Shown here: positions 16,954 to 38,825 of the stretch, one piece after another
Layout of the letters: each line of letters begins with the position of its first letter
How positions within the stretch are numbered: the stretch's first letter is position 1
Assembly: GCF_054482595.1 (NCBI RefSeq)
Contig: NZ_CM137008.1
Strand: one strand, 5' to 3'
DNA length: 64,000 bases
Program-made: the position numbers and the translations under genes
Notes under the pieces: model-generated
What the model saw: the letters and a program-made list of their open reading frames with translations, nothing else
Told to the model about the DNA's origin: nothing
Database searches by the model: none

Positions 16954-19032
16954 ATGTCACAGACACTTGCACTCCATCCCGTGAAAAAGCGGGATGCGAT
17001 TTTCCTTTGGGTTTTGCTGGGCTGGCTGGCATTTGTCCTGTTGCCGAGCTGGAGCCTCGATTATGGCCTGCTGGAGTCCACGAGTGATGAGATCCTCGGG
17101 GCGTACGGCTGGTCGCATTTTAATATCAGCTGGCTGTGGTATTTACTCCCGAGCCTGTTGCTGGTCCGCCCGTTTAGTGAGGCCACGCGCGAACAACGTA
17201 GCCGTCATTATTTCGATGCCGGCTGGGCATTGCTCTGTATGGCGTTTATCGTCATCAGCGCCACCGTGGTTGGACGCGGTTTAGGCTACGCCGCCATCGT
17301 GCTGTTTGTCGAACTAGGCGCGATTATGACGCTGGCCTTAACCCGCCTCGAATGGCTGGGTGGCGACCGCTTCGTGATCGGCTCACTGATTGCGATTGTG
17401 GCGCTGATTGGCATTTTTATCGTCTGGCCGAGCATCGCCATTTTTATCCCGATGTTCACCAACGACGCGGGAGAGTTCGCCCCGCTGGCGTTTATGACCG
17501 TGCTCTCGCAGGCACATATTGTTCAGGTGATCGTCAACTCTATCGTCTTGTCGATAGCGGTGGGGATAGGCTGTACTTTCTTCGGCCTGGTGCTGGCGAT
17601 TTATACCACGCGCATCGCTAAACGCAGCGCCATTATTGGTCGCATCTTTTCCATTTTGCCCATCGTTACGCCACCGTTTGTGGTCGGCTTAGGCGTGACG
17701 CTCATGATGGGGCGCTCCGGCTATGTTACGGAATTTATGGTGGAGTGGTTTGGGCTGACCAACACCAACTGGCTGTACGGTTTTACCGGGATCTGGCTGG
17801 CACAGGTTCTGGCATTCACGCCAATGGCATTTATGATCCTCGACGGGGCCATTAAAACCATTCATCCCTCGCTGGAAGAGGCCTCCTACACCCTGCGCGC
17901 CAGCCGCTGGCAAACCTTTAACGGCGTGTTTGTGCCGTTGTTGAAGCCCGCGCTCGCCAATGCCTTTTTAATCGTCGTGGTACAGTCACTGGCTGATTTC
18001 AGTAACCCGCTGGTACTTGGCGGTAACTTCGACGTACTGGCGACGCAAATTTACTTCTATATTACCGGCTCGCAGCTGGATTATCAGGCCGCCAGCACCC
18101 TTGGCGCTTCCCTGCTGCTGTTCTCGCTGCTGGTGTTCTGCATACAGTATATGTGGATTGGTAAACGCTCTTACGTCACGGTTTCCGGCAAATCCTACCG
18201 TGGCGACGTCCAGCCGCTACCGGTCACCCTGGTGTGGAGCGTGGTCGCCATACTTGCGATATGGATTGCCTTTAACGCCCTGCTCTACGGCAGCATTTTC
18301 TACGGCAGCTTCACGGTGAACTGGGGCGTGGACTACACCCTGACGCTGGATAACTTTATCAAGCTATTTGGTCAGGGAATGAGCGACGGCGCGTGGCCTT
18401 CACTGCTGGATACCCTGCTCTACGCCGGGATTGCCGCTCCCATTACCGCTATCTTTGGCCTGCTCATCGCCTGGGTGGTGGTGCGTCAACAATTCAAAGG
18501 CAAAAAGACCATCGAGTTCACCACCATGCTGTGCTTTGCCGTACCGGGTACGGTGGCGGGCGTCTCGTATATTCTTGCCTTTAACAGCGCTCCGGTTTAT
18601 CTCACCGGAACGGCGGCAATTGTGATTATCTCGATGGTGATGCGTAACGTTCCGGTGGGTATTCGCGCCGGGATTGCAGGCCTGGGGCAGATCGACAAAT
18701 CGCTGGATGAAGCCTCACTCAGCCTGCGCGCGGGTTCCTTGCGAACCATAACCCACATTTTACTGCCGCTGCTGCGTCCGGCCATTCTCTCGGCCCTGAT
18801 CTACAGCTTTGTGCGGGCCATCACGACGGTCAGCGCCATCGTCTTTCTCGTCACGCCGGACACCCGCGTGGCAACCGCCTACATTCTTAACCGCGTTGAA
18901 GACGGCGAATATGGCGTAGCCATCGCCTATGGTTCGATTCTGATCGTGGTGATGCTGGCGATTATTTTCCTCTTTGACTGGCTGATCGGAGAAGCTCGTA
19001 TCTCCCGTTCTAAAGCCAAAAACCAGGCGTAA
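16954..19032 (+). CDS. afuB: AfuB-type ABC transporter permease (duplicated transmembrane domain)
   Basis: 692 aa from the ATG at 16954 (the track ORF starts at an upstream TTG); long polytopic protein. Confidence 0.85.
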
Positions 19033-19043
19033 TGGAGCGCACT

Positions 19044-20090
19044 ATGAGTCAGAAAAATTTTGTTGAACTGCGCAACGTCACTAAACGATTCGGCAGTAAT
19101 ACGGTTATCGACAATATCAATCTCACCATCCCACAAGGGCAAATGGTGACGCTGCTCGGTCCTTCCGGCTGTGGCAAAACCACCATTTTGCGTCTGGTTG
19201 CCGGGCTGGAAAAACCGAGCGAAGGGCAAATTTTTATTGATGGCGAAGATGTCACGCATCGTTCCATTCAACAGCGCGATATCTGCATGGTGTTTCAGTC
19301 ATACGCTCTGTTCCCGCATATGTCGCTGGGTGAAAACGTTGGCTACGGGCTGAAGATGCTTGGCGTGTCGCGTAGCGAAGTGAAACAGCGGGTGAAGGAG
19401 GCGCTGGCAATGGTGGATCTGGAAGGCTTCGAGGACCGCTATGTCGATCAGATTTCCGGTGGTCAGCAACAGCGTGTGGCACTGGCCCGCGCGTTGATCC
19501 TCAAGCCAAAGGTGCTGCTGTTTGATGAGCCGTTAAGTAACCTCGATGCCAACCTGCGCCGCAGTATGCGCGATAAGATCCGCGAGCTGCAAAAGCAGTT
19601 TAATATCACGTCGCTCTACGTCACTCACGATCAAAGTGAAGCTTTCGCGGTGTCCGACACTGTGCTGGTAATGAATAAAGGTCACATCATGCAGATTGGC
19701 TCACCGCAGGATCTCTATCGTCAGCCAGCCTCCCGATTTATGGCAAGTTTTATGGGCGACGCCAACCTGTTCCCGGCGAACTTTAGCGAAGAGTATGTCG
19801 ATATCTACGGTTATCGCCTGCCGCGCGCGGCGCATTTCCCGGCGCAAGGTAGCGGCACCGTCGGCGTTCGCCCGGAAGCCATCACCTTAAGCAATCACGG
19901 CGAAGAGAGTCAGCGTTGTGTTATTCGCCATGTCGCCTACATGGGGCCGCAGTACGAAGTGACCGTAGAGTGGCATGGACAGGAGATTTTATTACAAGTA
20001 AACGCCACCCGTTTACAGCCCGATATTGGTGAGCACTATTACCTCGAAATCCATCCTTACGGGATGTTTGTTTTAGCGGATGCGGCATAA
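19044..20090 (+). CDS. afuC: AfuC-type ABC transporter ATP-binding protein
   Basis: 348 aa from [12 protein letters not shown] with GGAG RBS; Walker [10 protein letters not shown], signature LSGGQQQRV. Confidence 0.88.
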
Positions 20091-20102
20091 AAATAGCACA
20101 TA

Positions 20103-20132
20103 AACGGTCCCCATCTGTCTTGAGGGACCGTT
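20103..20132 (+). terminator. Stem-loop 13 nt downstream of afuC (9-bp stem AACGGTCCC/GGGACCGTT, 12-nt loop)
   Basis: Perfect inverted repeat; no U-tract, so intrinsic-terminator status is uncertain. Confidence 0.3.
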
Positions 20133-20172
20133 CACCTGGTTAGGCTTCGGACAACAATTATTCTCCAGTGTT

Positions 20173-20225
20173 ATATACTATAGGGGGGTATGCATTGACA
20201 TATAGCATACCCCCCTATAGTATAT
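20173..20225 (+). promoter_or_regulatory. frmRAB promoter with candidate FrmR operator: perfect inverted repeat with G6/C6 tracts flanking a -35 hexamer
   Basis: TATACTATAGGGGGGTATGC (20174-20193) and its exact reverse complement (20205-20224) flank ATTGACATATA; TTGACA at 20195-20200; TATAGT-like -10 inside the right arm. Confidence 0.7.
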
Positions 20226-20249
20226 TGCGTGCAGATGATGAGGTGCGAA

Positions 20250-20525
20250 ATGCCCAGTACTCCGGAAGAGAAGAAAAAGGTCCTTACTCGAGTTCGTCGT
20301 ATTCGGGGGCAGATTGATGCTCTGGAACGGTCGCTGGAGGGTGATGCCGAATGCCGTGCCATACTCCAACAGATCGCTGCCGTTCGGGGCGCGGCTAACG
20401 GGCTGATGGCTGAAGTGCTTGAAAGCCATATCCGGGAAACGTTTGACCGAAATGACTGCTACAGCCGCGAAGTCAGCCAATCCGTTGACGACACTATTGA
20501 ACTGGTTCGTGCCTATCTTAAATAG
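20250..20525 (+). CDS. frmR: FrmR, formaldehyde-responsive repressor (CsoR/RcnR family)
   Basis: 91 aa from [26 protein letters not shown] with GAGGTG RBS; the track ORF starts at an upstream GTG. Confidence 0.93.
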
Positions 20526-20529
20526 CTGA

Positions 20530-21669
<1,140 letters not shown>

Positions 21670-21761
21670 TTTCCCGCTGGTTTACCCCGTCCACTTCATA
21701 CGGGGTTCTTAATACTCTCCCCGGGCAGCCGTCCGGGGGATTAACCGTGAGATAATGACTG

Positions 21762-22595
21762 ATGGAACTCATTGAAAAACATGCCAGCTTTGGCGGCTGG
21801 CAAAATGTGTATCGGCATTATTCCGCATCACTGAAATGTGAAATGAATGTCGGCGTCTATCTCCCACCAAAAGCTGCAGGTGAAAAATTACCGGTGCTGT
21901 ACTGGCTTTCGGGCCTGACCTGCAATGAGCAGAATTTCATTACTAAATCGGGGATGCAGCGTTACGCGGCTGAGCACAACATTATTATTGTTGCGCCGGA
22001 CACCAGTCCGCGAGGCAGTCATGTCGCAGATGCCGACCGTTACGATCTCGGGCAAGGTGCCGGGTTTTACCTGAACGCGACGCAAGCGCCGTGGAATGAA
22101 CATTACAAAATGTATGACTATATCCGCAACGAGCTGCCGGATTTAGTGATGAATCATTTTCCGGCAACGGCCAAAAAGTCTATCTCTGGTCATTCTATGG
22201 GCGGACTGGGCGCGCTGGTGCTGGCGTTACGTAACCCAGATGAATATGTCAGCGTCTCGGCGTTTTCGCCCATTGTCTCCCCATCGCAAGTGCCGTGGGG
22301 ACAGCAAGCCTTTGCTGCATATCTTGGTGAAAATAAAGAGGCCTGGTTGGATTACGACCCGGTGAGTCTTATTTCACAAGGTCAACGCGTTGCGGAAATC
22401 ATGGTTGATCAGGGGTTGAGTGATGATTTTTACGCGGAACAGCTGCGGACTCAAAATCTTGAAAAGATCTGCCAGGAGATGAATATCAAGACGTTAATCC
22501 GTTATCACGAGGGTTACGACCACAGCTATTATTTTGTCTCCAGTTTTATTGGCGAGCATATTGCCTACCACGCCAATAAACTGAATATGCGTTAA
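21762..22595 (+). CDS. frmB: FrmB, S-formylglutathione hydrolase (esterase D family)
   Basis: 277-aa ORF with GHSMGG serine-hydrolase motif. Confidence 0.95.
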   Translation: MELIEKHASFGGWQNVYRHYSASLKCEMNVGVYLPPKAAGEKLPVLYWLSGLTCNEQNFITKSGMQRYAAEHNIIIVAPDTSPRGSHVADADRYDLGQGAGFYLNATQAPWNEHYKMYDYIRNELPDLVMNHFPATAKKSISGHSMGGLGALVLALRNPDEYVSVSAFSPIVSPSQVPWGQQAFAAYLGENKEAWLDYDPVSLISQGQRVAEIMVDQGLSDDFYAEQLRTQNLEKICQEMNIKTLIRYHEGYDHSYYFVSSFIGEHIAYHANKLNMR

Positions 22596-22602
22596 TAATA
22601 GT

Positions 22603-22912
<310 letters not shown>

Positions 22913-22920
22913 ATCTATGT

Positions 22921-23460
22921 TTACCACATCAAATCATCAGGCACTTTGAAGTCGGCATACGGATCGTCTTCATCCTGCTCTTCGGCACTGAGCGCGCAAT
23001 GCAACACAATACTGCTGGCATCACGCTGAGCAATTTTATCGGCAACGCTGGCGGGAATAATGGCGTATTCACCTTCGCTATTGTTATCGACCAACAAGCG
23101 GGCAATCGCCAGACGACCATTAATCAACTGCGCCTGTGTGAGCTTATCGACAAAAATCTTCTTAATCAGATTGCCGTCAGTGAAGTTAAAACCAATATCG
23201 CCATTGGCAATGGTGATCCGGTTCATTTCAATAAGCTGCTTCACCTGAGCTTTATATTCTTTCGCCAACGCCGCTTGTTTTTGCTGTTCGCTAAGCTGTT
23301 TATCACGCTCAAGCTGTGCCTTTTTATTTTCTTCTACCGCAGCCCGAGCTTCACGCGCCTGAACGCGCGATTTTTTCGCCGTTCTCTCGACCTTCGCCGC
23401 TTTTTTGCTGGTGACTAATCCTGCTTTGAGCAACTGCTCTTGTAAGGTAAGTTTTGCCAT
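22921..23460 (-). CDS. yaiL: YaiL, DUF2058-family protein
   Basis: 179 aa from the internal start MAKLTLQEQLLKAGL; the track ORF is over-extended. Confidence 0.85.
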   Translation of the reverse strand: MAKLTLQEQLLKAGLVTSKKAAKVERTAKKSRVQAREARAAVEENKKAQLERDKQLSEQQKQAALAKEYKAQVKQLIEMNRITIANGDIGFNFTDGNLIKKIFVDKLTQAQLINGRLAIARLLVDNNSEGEYAIIPASVADKIAQRDASSIVLHCALSAEEQDEDDPYADFKVPDDLMW

Positions 23461-23561
23461 CTTTGTTTCCAAACCCGCTGAATAATTTTTAGCGAGTATA
23501 CCTGTAAACGCCGTGGGTGTATTGGGGGCAAGTCCCTTTCGCCCCTGCTTAATAAGGCGCG

Positions 23562-24773
23562 TCAGGCATCGGCACACGGCTGCATTCTTGATCTCCGACT
23601 CATCAAAATAAACACCGCCAACCCCGCAACAAGAATACCCGGTGCAGAAGCGGCCATTACGCCGACCGTGCCAGTGCCTAATGCCAGCATTTTCCCGGCC
23701 AGTAACGGACCGCTCATAGCCCCCAGACGCCCTACCGCCACGGCTGTTCCCACACCTGTTGCGCGGATCTGCGAACTGTAAAACAACGGTGCCAGGGCAT
23801 ACAAAACGCTTTGCCCACCTGTCGCAAACAACCCCGCGACAAATCCCGCCAGCAACATACCGTTAAATGACGACACCGTTCCAAGCGCCAGCAGCGAAGT
23901 TAACATGCCGCTATAAATCAGTAGCGACATGGTTACTGGACGCAGCTTATCCATCAATGCGCCCAACATTAACGTCCCGCTCGCCGCACCCATTTGCAGT
24001 GCAAACATCACCCCTGCCGCCTGCGATGGCTGGAATCCTTGCTCCACCAAAAGCAGCGGTAGCCAGTTGATCAACATGTAAACCACCAGCAGAGTGAAGA
24101 AATAACACAGCCACAGCAGCAGCGTCGCGGTTGCCGTTTCTGGCGCAAATAACGCACGCAGTGGTGGCGCAGCCTGTTTTTCGCCAGCGAAAACCGCCGA
24201 CTCCGGCAGCCAGCGCATTAATAGCGGCACCAGAATCAACGGCACCACACCACCTACCCAAAACACCGTTTGCCATGCTAAGTTTGCCCCCGCGAAACCC
24301 AGTGTCGCCGCCAGCGCCGCGCCAATGGGAACACCGCAATACATCAGGCTCACTGCCGTCCCACGAAAACGTGGACCCGCGGCTTCAGACGTCAGGGCGA
24401 TAAGATTCGGCAACGCCGCCCCCAGCCCGACACCGGTCATCAGCCGCGCAAAGACCAGTGAGGGGAAATCCCAGGCAATCGCCGTTGCCAGTGAGAACAA
24501 ACCAAACAGCGCAACTGAGCCAATCAAAATGCGCTTGCGACCATAACGGTCCGCCAGCATTCCGCCAACCAACGCGCCGGGTAGTAAACCGAGTATTCCG
24601 GCGCTGAATATCCAGCCCATTTGCATTTTATCGAGTGCGAAAGCCTGGGCGATGCCACCCGCCGCAATGCCAGCCGCCTGAAGATCCAGCCCTTCCATCA
24701 GAGCGACCAAAAAACAAAGCCCGATGGTCAGCATCAGGCGGGATGAAGATGATGAAGGGGTACGAGTCGACAT
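23562..24773 (-). CDS. mhpT: MhpT, 3-hydroxyphenylpropionate MFS transporter
   Basis: 403 aa from the internal start MSTRTPSSSSSRLMLTIG. Confidence 0.9.
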   Translation of the reverse strand: MSTRTPSSSSSRLMLTIGLCFLVALMEGLDLQAAGIAAGGIAQAFALDKMQMGWIFSAGILGLLPGALVGGMLADRYGRKRILIGSVALFGLFSLATAIAWDFPSLVFARLMTGVGLGAALPNLIALTSEAAGPRFRGTAVSLMYCGVPIGAALAATLGFAGANLAWQTVFWVGGVVPLILVPLLMRWLPESAVFAGEKQAAPPLRALFAPETATATLLLWLCYFFTLLVVYMLINWLPLLLVEQGFQPSQAAGVMFALQMGAASGTLMLGALMDKLRPVTMSLLIYSGMLTSLLALGTVSSFNGMLLAGFVAGLFATGGQSVLYALAPLFYSSQIRATGVGTAVAVGRLGAMSGPLLAGKMLALGTGTVGVMAASAPGILVAGLAVFILMSRRSRMQPCADA

Positions 24774-35676: not shown

Positions 35677-35706
35677 TTTACACTTTATGCGTCCGGCTCG
35701 TATGTT
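35677..35706 (+). promoter_or_regulatory. lacZYA promoter (-35 TTTACA, 18-bp spacer, -10 TATGTT)
   Basis: Canonical lacP1 hexamers at the canonical spacing. Confidence 0.9.
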
Positions 35707-35712
35707 GTGTGA

Positions 35713-38825
<3,113 letters not shown>

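What the first reader, a model, noticed from the sequence alone, without database searches (positions are those of the whole stretch)
20173..20225. Perfect 20-bp inverted repeats with G6/C6 tracts bracketing the frmR -35 element
TATACTATAGGGGGGTATGC and its exact reverse complement are separated by 11 bp that contain TTGACA, and the right arm contains a TATAGT-like -10. An AT-rich inverted repeat around a G/C tract is the architecture described for CsoR/RcnR-family operators, so this is very likely the FrmR operator overlapping its own promoter. The perfection and length of the symmetry are notable.
Basis: partly seen in the sequence, partly recalled or inferred. Interest (0 to 1): 0.3.

Follow-up and report, generated by a model that had tools for sequence, protein, structure and literature searches.

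The report
FrmR operator palindrome at frmRAB promoter
This perfect 21-base palindrome is the already published two-site operator where the formaldehyde-sensing repressor FrmR sits on the promoter of E. coli's formaldehyde-detoxification operon; it is real and well conserved but not new.

Summary
Arms 20173-20193 and 20205-20225 are 21 nt (not 20) and perfectly complementary. The 11-bp spacer holds TTGACA. Shuffled copies of the window reach 9-14 nt at most.

The window is E. coli, and frmR, frmA and frmB follow directly. Each arm is a complete CsoR/RcnR type I site (ATAC-N9-GTAT around G6 or C6). The distal site ends 3 bp before the -35. The proximal site contains the -10 (TAGTAT, 17-bp spacer).

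Denby et al. 2016 (PMC5146963, Fig. 6a) describe exactly this "large inverted repeat" as tandem FrmR sites. A Salmonella FrmR-binding probe shares 19/19 bases with the right arm.

My comparison of 80 frmR loci shows ATAC-N9-GTAT about 560-fold enriched upstream of frmR. The proximal site is kept as far as Alphaproteobacteria. The distal site, and hence the palindrome, is found in Enterobacterales, Aeromonas and Deefgea.

The perfect form is the major E. coli allele; K-12 has one mismatch.

One side finding: strain FJ_Ec_21 has the central 15 bp exactly inverted, which flips the promoter away from frmR. It is unique among 5,419 matching records and absent from 80 metagenome contigs.

Verdict: interpretation supported, already known, low interest.

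The parts
20158..20172 (+). Conserved block directly upstream of the palindrome (TTATTCTCCAGTGTT). Homology with K-12-type genomes, which have yaiO upstream instead of fbpC, begins here.
   Evidence: the match to most E. coli genomes starts at query base 109, which is window 20158; invariant across 7 E. coli sequences with different upstream genes. Function not tested. PMC11127321 reports that removing DNA upstream of the sites abolished repression.
20173..20193 (.). Left arm of the perfect palindrome (ATATACTATAGGGGGGTATGC)
20175..20191 (.). Distal FrmR type I site ATAC-TATAGGGGG-GTAT (G6 tract 20183-20188)
   Evidence: Sequence. Motif definition from PMC5146963. The motif is enriched upstream of frmR homologues. 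The site ends 3 bp before the -35 in 15 of 15 two-site loci.
20194..20204 (.). 11-bp spacer ATTGACATATA between the arms
20195..20200 (+). -35 hexamer TTGACA
   Evidence: TTGAC is conserved at the same offset in 13 of the 15 two-site loci (TTGATT in Aeromonas, TTGCAT in Deefgea).
20205..20225 (.). Right arm of the perfect palindrome (GCATACCCCCCTATAGTATAT)
20207..20223 (.). Proximal FrmR type I site ATAC-CCCCCTATA-GTAT (C6 tract 20210-20215); covers the promoter spacer and the -10
   Evidence: 19 nt (20207-20225) are identical to the Salmonella frmRAPro probe that binds FrmR. This is the copy conserved across Gamma-, Beta- and Alphaproteobacteria.
20218..20223 (+). -10 hexamer TAGTAT, 17 bp after the -35
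   Evidence: The start site was not mapped here. Denby et al. place the palindrome centre at -29 from a predicted start, which implies +1 near 20228.
20240..20245 (+). Shine-Dalgarno-like GAGGTG, 4 nt before the frmR ATG
   Evidence: Read from the sequence; conserved as GAGGT in the Enterobacterales loci
20250..20525 (+). frmR, the formaldehyde-responsive DUF156 repressor (91 aa; Pro2, Cys35, His60, Lys10, Arg14, Arg16, Arg17 and Lys91 all present)
20560..21669 (+). frmA, S-(hydroxymethyl)glutathione dehydrogenase
   Evidence: TIGR02818, 743 bits
21762..22595 (+). frmB, S-formylglutathione hydrolase
   Evidence: TIGR02821, 398 bits

Best explanation
The palindrome is the operator-promoter of the autoregulated frmRAB formaldehyde-detoxification operon of E. 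coli.

Each arm is one complete CsoR/RcnR-family type I operator: ATAC-N9-GTAT around a G6 or C6 tract. The two sites lie in opposite orientation, 32 bp centre to centre. The distal site (20175-20191) ends 3 bp before the -35 TTGACA. The proximal site (20207-20223) covers the promoter spacer and the -10 TAGTAT.

Without formaldehyde, tetrameric FrmR occupies the sites and keeps RNA polymerase off the promoter. Formaldehyde cross-links Pro2 to Cys35 between subunits. That moves the basic DNA-contact residues apart, FrmR leaves the DNA, and frmR, frmA and frmB are transcribed.

Shown, by others: EcFrmR binds Pfrm DNA and is released by formaldehyde. The proximal-site sequence binds Salmonella FrmR and needs its AT-rich flank. 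The two sites transplanted into a constitutive promoter confer FrmR repression.

Shown here: the anatomy, the significance of the palindrome, and the conservation of the sites and their geometry.

Inferred: exact occupancy (one tetramer per site, two per site, or one tetramer bridging both), the transcription start, and what the distal site contributes.
For: Anatomy.

Gene identity: FrmR 189 bits against a cut-off of 133; FrmA; FrmB; PDB 5LBM.

Literature:
[quoted passage not shown] It reports a Kd of about 220 nM by bio-layer interferometry, no binding to control DNA, and formaldehyde-enhanced dissociation.
- PMC4528141 and PMC5016687: a 33-bp Salmonella probe binds two FrmR tetramers with KDNA of about 1e-7 M. 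Mutating one AT-rich flank abolishes binding. 19 of 19 nt of that probe equal window 20207-20225.
- PMC11127321: the two ATAC-N9-GTAT sites, placed upstream of the -35 and in the spacer of promoter J23100, give complete FrmR-dependent repression.

- Exact ATAC-N9-GTAT occurs 83 times in 11,986 nt upstream of 80 frmR homologues against 3 times in 243,378 nt of flanks. 65 of 80 loci have at least one site.
- In 15 two-site loci the -35 starts 3-4 bp after the distal site and the -10 lies inside the proximal site.
- In seven aligned E. coli sequences the outer 19 nt of both arms did not vary, and all variation sat in the spacer and inner arm ends, apart from one C5 tract that may be a homopolymer read error. 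The 80 metagenome contigs show the same polymorphic central positions, but there the pattern itself fixed the inner 13 nt of each arm.
Against: No nucleotide-resolution footprint of E. coli FrmR on Pfrm turned up in the papers I could read. The E. coli binding assay used a PCR fragment, so assigning binding to these exact bases rests on the motif, the Salmonella probe and the transplant experiment.

The transcription start is predicted, not mapped.

PMC11127321 reports that a truncated PfrmR keeping both sites but lacking upstream DNA lost repression. The two sites may therefore not be sufficient in the native context.

The two Pfrm dissection papers (Rohlhill 2017, Woolston 2018) were not available.

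I count 32 bp between site centres (20183 to 20215), whereas Denby et al. state 31.
Confidence: 0.93

Rival explanations
1. The palindrome acts through its secondary structure: cruciform extrusion in supercoiled DNA, or a hairpin in read-through RNA from the upstream gene that works as a terminator, processing site or stabiliser. On this reading it is not a protein-binding operator.
For: As single-stranded DNA it folds into a 21-bp stem with an 11-nt loop, -21.5 kcal/mol, z = -7.1 against shuffles. It lies between two co-oriented genes (fbpC or yaiO, and frmR).
Against: No T-run follows the stem on either strand. The predicted start lies downstream of the palindrome, so the frm transcript does not contain it. 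No Rfam family matches: the best hit scores 26.8 bits against a gathering score of 90, a generic miRNA hairpin.

Conservation follows the site, not the hairpin. Most distant frmR loci have a single site with no partner arm. In Erwinia both sites match ATAC-N5-TATAGTAT on the same strand, so there is no long hairpin. Between-arm covariation is weak (permutation p = 0.07).
Confidence: 0.03
2. The 53-bp palindrome is recognised as one unit: a single FrmR tetramer uses both of its faces to bridge the two sites, or a higher-order assembly wraps the DNA. The large symmetry itself would then be functionally required, rather than being two independent sites.
For: Denby et al. raise the single-tetramer possibility because of the wide site spacing. 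Spacing is held within 32-35 bp in 15 two-site loci, and the orientation is inverted in most. A truncated promoter that kept both sites lost repression, which hints at extended contacts or wrapping. The Salmonella single site already binds two tetramers.
Against: Spacing varies by 3 bp (about 100 degrees of helical phase), and Erwinia reads as direct orientation. Both argue against one rigid bridging geometry. Most frmR promoters work with one site (Salmonella). About 32 bp is very short for looping.
Confidence: 0.12
3. The palindrome is the terminal inverted repeat or remnant of a mobile or repetitive element (REP-, MITE- or IS-like) that happens to lie upstream of frmR.
For: It lies 15 bp from a breakpoint of synteny: fbpC-type against yaiO-type upstream flanks.
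Against: It is single-copy. 5,415 of 5,426 E. coli genomes have it at the frmR promoter, with a median of 2 places per genome, which I read as the two strands of the one palindromic locus. It is always tied to frmR, including on plasmids and in other genera. The half-site has no other copy in the window.
Confidence: 0.01

Closest known systems
E. coli K-12 Pfrm operator as published (Denby et al. 2016, Sci Rep 6:38879, Fig. 6a)
   Same: The same locus and the same element: a large inverted repeat centred near -29, made of tandem type I FrmR sites with ATAC/GTAT flanks. The outer 19 nt of each arm are identical.
   Different: K-12 has A instead of C at the position equal to window 20206, so its 21-nt arms carry one mismatch. 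The window carries the perfect form, which is the major natural allele: the exact 69-nt stretch is in 2,870 of 5,416 records, and 59 of 80 metagenome contigs have the perfect centre. The upstream gene is fbpC here and yaiO in K-12.
Salmonella Typhimurium frmRA operator (Osman et al. 2015, 2016)
   Same: The probe sequence ATACCCCCCTATAGTATAT is 19/19 identical to the E. coli right arm. It is a C6 tract flanked by a T/A-rich inverted repeat, overlaps the promoter and is bound by FrmR.
   Different: The papers describe a single C6 site for Salmonella. There is no distal G6 site and so no large palindrome. The operon lacks frmB.
E. coli rcnR-rcnA operator (RcnR, the paralogous DUF156 repressor)
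   Same: Two type I sites with the same internal geometry: TACT-N7-AGTA around a G/C tract, in the regulator's own promoter region (probe sequence).
   Different: The RcnR sites lie 19 bp apart against 32 bp here. In the Salmonella probe both tracts run on the same strand, whereas here G6 and C6 are in inverted orientation. The effector is Ni/Co, not formaldehyde. FrmR scores only 68 bits on the RcnR model against a cut-off of 138.
Plasmid-borne frmR-frmA operons of Enterobacterales (for example Edwardsiella anguillarum plasmid NZ_CP006665.1)
   Same: The same two-site inverted design, with the -35 TTGAC 3 bp after the distal site and the -10 in the proximal site. They have their own perfect 18-nt palindrome.
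   Different: The tract is GTGGAG/CTCCAC instead of G6/C6. The spacing is 34 bp and the -10 is TATAGT. The query matched 426 plasmids, 265 of them at 95% identity or more; most are conjugative.

Membership tests
CsoR/RcnR (DUF156) type I operator | [quoted passage not shown] | tested here: met
   Each arm reads ATAC-TATA-G6-TAT, or its complement, with ATAC/GTAT as the flanking inverted repeat.
CsoR/RcnR (DUF156) type I operator | Lies in the promoter of an operon that encodes or is controlled by a DUF156 repressor | tested here: met
   It overlaps TTGACA-17-TAGTAT, 25 bp upstream of frmR. FrmR passes the NF008464 cut-off and matches PDB 5LBM.
CsoR/RcnR (DUF156) type I operator | The site is conserved upstream of orthologous regulators | tested here: met
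   83 exact ATAC-N9-GTAT sites in 12 kb upstream of 80 frmR homologues against 3 in 243 kb of flanks; 65 of 80 loci have at least one.
CsoR/RcnR (DUF156) type I operator | Bound by the cognate repressor in vitro and released by the effector | not testable with these tools
   Literature only. EcFrmR binds a Pfrm PCR fragment (Kd about 220 nM) and is released by formaldehyde. Salmonella FrmR binds a 33-bp duplex that shares 19 nt with the right arm. I found no base-resolution footprint for E. coli.
frmRAB formaldehyde-detoxification operon | FrmR with the sensing residues Pro2 and Cys35, followed by glutathione-dependent formaldehyde dehydrogenase and S-formylglutathione hydrolase | tested here: met
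   (Pro2, Cys35 and His60 present; TIGR02818 at 743 bits; TIGR02821 at 398 bits).
Intrinsic terminator or structured RNA | A GC-rich stem followed by a U-run, or a match to a curated RNA family | tested here: not met
   The terminator scan does not call it. There is no Rfam match near the gathering score.
Recombinase-driven invertible promoter (fimS-like phase switch) | Both orientations recur in natural populations, and a site-specific recombinase is encoded nearby | tested here: not met
   The inverted form is in 1 of 5,419 matching records and 0 of 80 metagenome contigs. No recombinase appears among the adjacent genes identified: fbpC, the permease, frmR, frmA and frmB, or yaiO in K-12-type strains. 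The ORF list for 17,000-24,000 shows nothing that suggests one, but the other ORFs were not searched. A 15-bp invertible segment is far shorter than in known switches.

The most novel reading that the evidence does not exclude
Because the two arms are identical and the -35 sits alone in the spacer, inverting the spacer between the arms makes an exact mirror-image promoter (TTGACA-17-TAGTAT) that points away from frmR. This has happened at least once in nature. Strain FJ_Ec_21 (NZ_CP143627.1) differs from the K-12 type over 705 bp only by an exact reverse complement of the central 15 bp, and the inversion carries the K-12 arm mismatch across to the other side.

The most novel reading not excluded is that this palindrome undergoes low-frequency, recombinase-independent spacer inversion, by template switching or short-inverted-repeat recombination. 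That would switch frmRAB expression off, or redirect it, in subpopulations that consensus assemblies cannot show.
Probability: 0.04. Interest if true: 0.45.

Novelty: already known. Interest (0 to 1): 0.1.

Why it matters
The element controls E. coli's main inducible defence against formaldehyde, and it is the core of widely used formaldehyde biosensors. Its identity and mechanism are published, so the finding adds nothing new in kind.

- The perfect palindrome, not the K-12 form, is the common natural allele.
- The promoter-proximal site is the more widely conserved one: it is kept as far as Alphaproteobacteria. The distal site, which creates the palindrome, is confined to Enterobacterales, Aeromonas and Deefgea, at a fixed 3-4-bp offset from the -35.
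- The symmetric design leaves the promoter open to a rare direction-flipping inversion, seen in one strain.

Tried and rejected
1. I tried to read the two papers that dissect Pfrm functionally (Rohlhill 2017, PMC5569641; Woolston 2018, PMC5699943). Neither is held, so their data on which bases matter could not be used.

2. Hairpin, terminator or RNA reading: rejected. There is no T-run, no Rfam match, and conservation follows the sites rather than the stem.

3. Mobile-element or dispersed-repeat reading: rejected. The element is single-copy and always linked to frmR.

4. Concerted evolution of the two arms: tested by permutation on 9 distinct two-site lineages. Mean within-locus mismatch was 1.67 against 2.11 between loci, p = 0.07. 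This is suggestive at most and I make no claim from it.

5. Recurrent invertible switch: tested with a gapped pattern in metagenome contigs. 97 stretches matched, 80 were held as loci, and all 80 are in the forward orientation. A BLAST search with the inverted form found only FJ_Ec_21 at 99% identity or more. Rejected as a common phenomenon.

6. I looked for inverted-spacer forms of the plasmid-type palindrome. The identity bands do not allow a clean count and I did not pursue it.

7. The Salmonella chromosomal locus could not be fetched. The genome scan returned the best 80 loci and Salmonella was not among them, so I relied on the published probe sequences.

Full report
**1. The observation**

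Window 20173-20225 reads ATATACTATAGGGGGGTATGC / ATTGACATATA / GCATACCCCCCTATAGTATAT. The repeat finder reports arms 20173-20193 and 20205-20225, 21 nt, 100% complementary, 11 nt apart. The symmetry stops on both sides: T20172 faces T20226, and A20194 faces A20204.

An exhaustive scan of the window for perfect inverted repeats with spacers of 50 or less puts this one first at 21 nt. The next has 13 nt. Thirty dinucleotide-preserving shuffles of the window gave longest arms of 9-14 nt, and the analytic expectation for 21 nt is about 7e-7.

**2. Context**

The window is E. coli. A 511-nt stretch around the site matches 5,415 of 5,426 complete E. coli genomes.

Downstream lie three genes:
- frmR, 20250-20525 (NCBIfam NF008464, 189 bits against a cut-off of 133)
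- frmA, 20560-21669 (TIGR02818)
- frmB, 21762-22595 (TIGR02821)

The FrmR here matches the crystallised E. coli protein 5LBM over all 91 residues. It has Pro2, Cys35, His60 and the basic residues Lys10, Arg14, Arg16, Arg17 and Lys91.

Upstream is fbpC, an arrangement shared by only 450 genomes. Most genomes, K-12 included, have yaiO there, and homology between the two types begins at window 20158, 15 bp before the palindrome.

The only sigma-70-like promoter called in 19900-20700 is TTGACA (20195-20200), 17 bp, TAGTAT (20218-20223). So the -35 lies in the spacer of the palindrome and the -10 lies inside the right arm.

**3. Anatomy of the arms**

Each arm is itself a small inverted repeat around a homopolymer tract. 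ATAC-TATAGGGGG-GTAT occupies 20175-20191, and its complement ATAC-CCCCCTATA-GTAT occupies 20207-20223. That is the type I operator architecture of the CsoR/RcnR (DUF156) family.

The large palindrome is therefore two complete operators in opposite orientation. By my count the centres are 32 bp apart (20183 and 20215). The distal site ends 3 bp before the -35. The proximal site spans the promoter spacer and ends exactly with the -10.

**4. What is published**

Denby et al. [quoted passage not shown] 6a).

They show that EcFrmR binds Pfrm DNA (Kd about 220 nM by bio-layer interferometry) and does not bind control DNA. Formaldehyde accelerates dissociation by forming Pro2-Cys35 methylene bridges, which move the DNA-contact residues apart.

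Osman et al. (PMC4528141, PMC5016687) show that Salmonella FrmR binds a 33-bp duplex as two tetramers with KDNA of about 1e-7 M. Mutating one AT-rich flank abolishes binding. The probe is TTCTGATAGTATACCCCCCTATAGTATATGGAG, and 19 of its bases are identical to window 20207-20225.

A 2024 study (PMC11127321) transplanted the two ATAC-N9-GTAT sites into the constitutive promoter J23100, at the same positions relative to the -35 and -10, and obtained complete FrmR-dependent repression. It also noted that a truncated native promoter, which kept both sites but lacked upstream DNA, lost repression.

I could not obtain the two Pfrm dissection papers. I found no base-resolution footprint for E. coli.

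**5. Independent comparative test**

I fetched 80 frmR loci from one genome per species. Exact ATAC-N9-GTAT occurs 83 times in the 11,986 nt immediately upstream of these genes, against 3 times in 243,378 nt of flanking sequence. That is roughly 560-fold enrichment. 65 of the 80 loci have at least one site and 18 have two.

The promoter-proximal site is conserved from Escherichia through Pasteurellaceae, Burkholderiales and Xanthomonadales to Brucella and Ochrobactrum. Its consensus is close to ATACTCCCC(T/C)ATAGTAT.

The distal site, and hence the large palindrome, occurs in these groups:
- Escherichia species
- Edwardsiella, Enterobacter, Morganella and Providencia
- Serratia and Pantoea
- Aeromonas
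- Erwinia and Deefgea

In all 15 two-site loci tabulated, the -35 begins 3-4 bp after the distal site, the -10 lies inside the proximal site, and the centre-to-centre distance is 32-35 bp. Where the spacing is 33-35 bp the -10 is TATAGT. Where it is 32 bp, in Escherichia and Deefgea, it is TAGTAT.

In Erwinia both sites match ATAC-N5-TATAGTAT on the same strand, which I read as direct orientation. That removes the hairpin potential while keeping the sites.

A plasmid-borne version (Edwardsiella, Enterobacter, Morganella; the query matched 426 plasmids, 265 of them at 95% identity or more) has its own perfect 18-nt palindrome with GTGGAG/CTCCAC tracts.

A permutation test for co-variation between the arms across nine lineages is only suggestive (p = 0.07).

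**6. Variation within E. coli**

The exact 69-nt stretch 20165-20233 is present in 2,870 of 5,416 records. Of 80 metagenome contigs carrying the element, 59 have the perfect centre, 11 have the K-12 type and the rest carry single changes.

K-12 has A for C at 20206, so the reference sequence used in the literature is an imperfect version.

In seven aligned E. coli sequences the outer 19 nt of both arms did not vary, and variation fell in the spacer and the inner two positions of the arms. The exception is one genome with C5 instead of C6, which could be a homopolymer read error. The metagenome contigs show the same variable central positions, though there the search pattern itself fixed the inner part of each arm. 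So the functional unit appears to be the 17-19-nt site, and the extension to 21 nt is an allele, not a requirement.

**7. Rivals**

A structural reading (cruciform, terminator or RNA) has a stable fold in its favour: -21.5 kcal/mol as single-stranded DNA, z = -7.1. Against it:
- There is no T-run.
- No Rfam family matches.
- The predicted start lies downstream of the element.
- Conservation follows the sites rather than the stem.

A mobile-element reading fails because the element is single-copy and always linked to frmR.

The stoichiometry stays open: one tetramer per site, two per site as on the Salmonella probe, or one tetramer bridging both sites as Denby et al. speculate. The 3-bp variation in spacing, the Erwinia orientation and the many single-site promoters argue against an obligatory bridging geometry, but this is inference.

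**8. Side finding**

In strain FJ_Ec_21 (NZ_CP143627.1) the 705 bp around the promoter differ from the K-12 type only in the central 15 bp, which are the exact reverse complement: TCTATATGTCAATGC against GCATTGACATATAGA. The K-12 arm mismatch has moved to the other arm, so this is an inversion with breakpoints inside the 19-nt perfect arms and not a cluster of substitutions.

By mirror symmetry the full TTGACA-17-TAGTAT promoter now lies on the opposite strand, pointing into yaiO, and the frmR-facing strand has lost its -35.

The event is unique. Only one record matches the inverted form at 99% identity or more, and none of the 80 metagenome contigs has it. It may be a real spontaneous inversion between short inverted repeats. 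Such events are known in E. coli from my own knowledge, which I did not check here. It may also be an assembly artefact. It is not a common switch.

**9. Verdict**

Two refinements apply: each arm is a complete operator, and the -10 is TAGTAT at 17-bp spacing.

The element is already described in the literature for this very locus, so novelty is nil and interest is low. The added value here is the phylogenetic picture of a widely conserved proximal site and a more restricted distal site, the allele frequencies, and the single inverted-spacer strain.

Noticed in passing
L001:335-349 (E. coli FJ_Ec_21, NZ_CP143627.1), equal to window 20192-20206: The central 15 bp of the palindrome are the exact reverse complement of the K-12-type sequence. 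This moves the whole TTGACA-17-TAGTAT promoter to the strand pointing away from frmR. It is the only difference in 705 bp, is unique among 5,419 matching records, and is absent from 80 metagenome contigs.
   Followed up: yes
window 20192-20193 and 20203-20206: E. coli polymorphism in this promoter clusters in the spacer and the inner ends of the arms. K-12 has C20206A, O26/O157-like strains have C20206T plus A20203G, and some contigs have C20193T. The perfect palindrome is the majority allele, and the K-12 reference is imperfect.
   Followed up: yes
window 20100-20172: A synteny breakpoint lies about 15 bp upstream of the palindrome. This strain and about 450 of 5,415 genomes have the fbpABC-type iron transporter upstream of frmR, while the rest have yaiO. 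A short hairpin, ACGGTCCC...GGGACCGT at about 20104-20130, follows fbpC and may be its terminator.
   Followed up: partly
L014:1420-1475 and plasmid hits H113-H131: Plasmids of Klebsiella, Enterobacter, Citrobacter, Edwardsiella and others, mostly conjugative, carry a frmR operon whose promoter has its own perfect 18-nt palindrome (TATACTATAGTGGAGTAT / ATACTCCACTATAGTATA) with the same -35 and -10 geometry. The query matched 426 plasmids, 265 of them at 95% identity or more.
   Followed up: partly
L022 (Erwinia endophytica), -79 to -30 from the frmR ATG: The two FrmR sites appear to be in direct rather than inverted orientation (ATACTGGGATATAGTAT ... ATACTGGTGTATAGTAT). Inverted symmetry of the pair is therefore not obligatory.
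   Followed up: partly
window 35706-35740: This is the second-longest perfect inverted repeat in the window (13-nt arms TGTGTGAAATTGT / ACAATTTCACACA). It is the lac operator O1 region just upstream of lacZ. From memory, K-12 has GGAATT where this strain has GAAATT, so the flank here would be more symmetric. I did not check this.
   Followed up: no
window 22600-22900: An array of REP/BIME-like repeats (tgccggatgcggcg...ccttatccggcctac, at least three units) lies directly downstream of frmB.
   Followed up: no
window 20183 versus 20215: The centre-to-centre distance of the two sites is 32 bp by direct count. Denby et al. 2016 state 31 bp. The discrepancy is minor and probably a counting convention.
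   Followed up: no
PMC11127321, concerning window ~20158-20172 and further upstream: A truncated PfrmR that kept both FrmR sites but lacked upstream DNA was reported to lose FrmR repression. This hints that flanking DNA contributes, perhaps through wrapping or non-specific contacts as proposed for RcnR. The invariant block 20158-20172 may be relevant.
   Followed up: no
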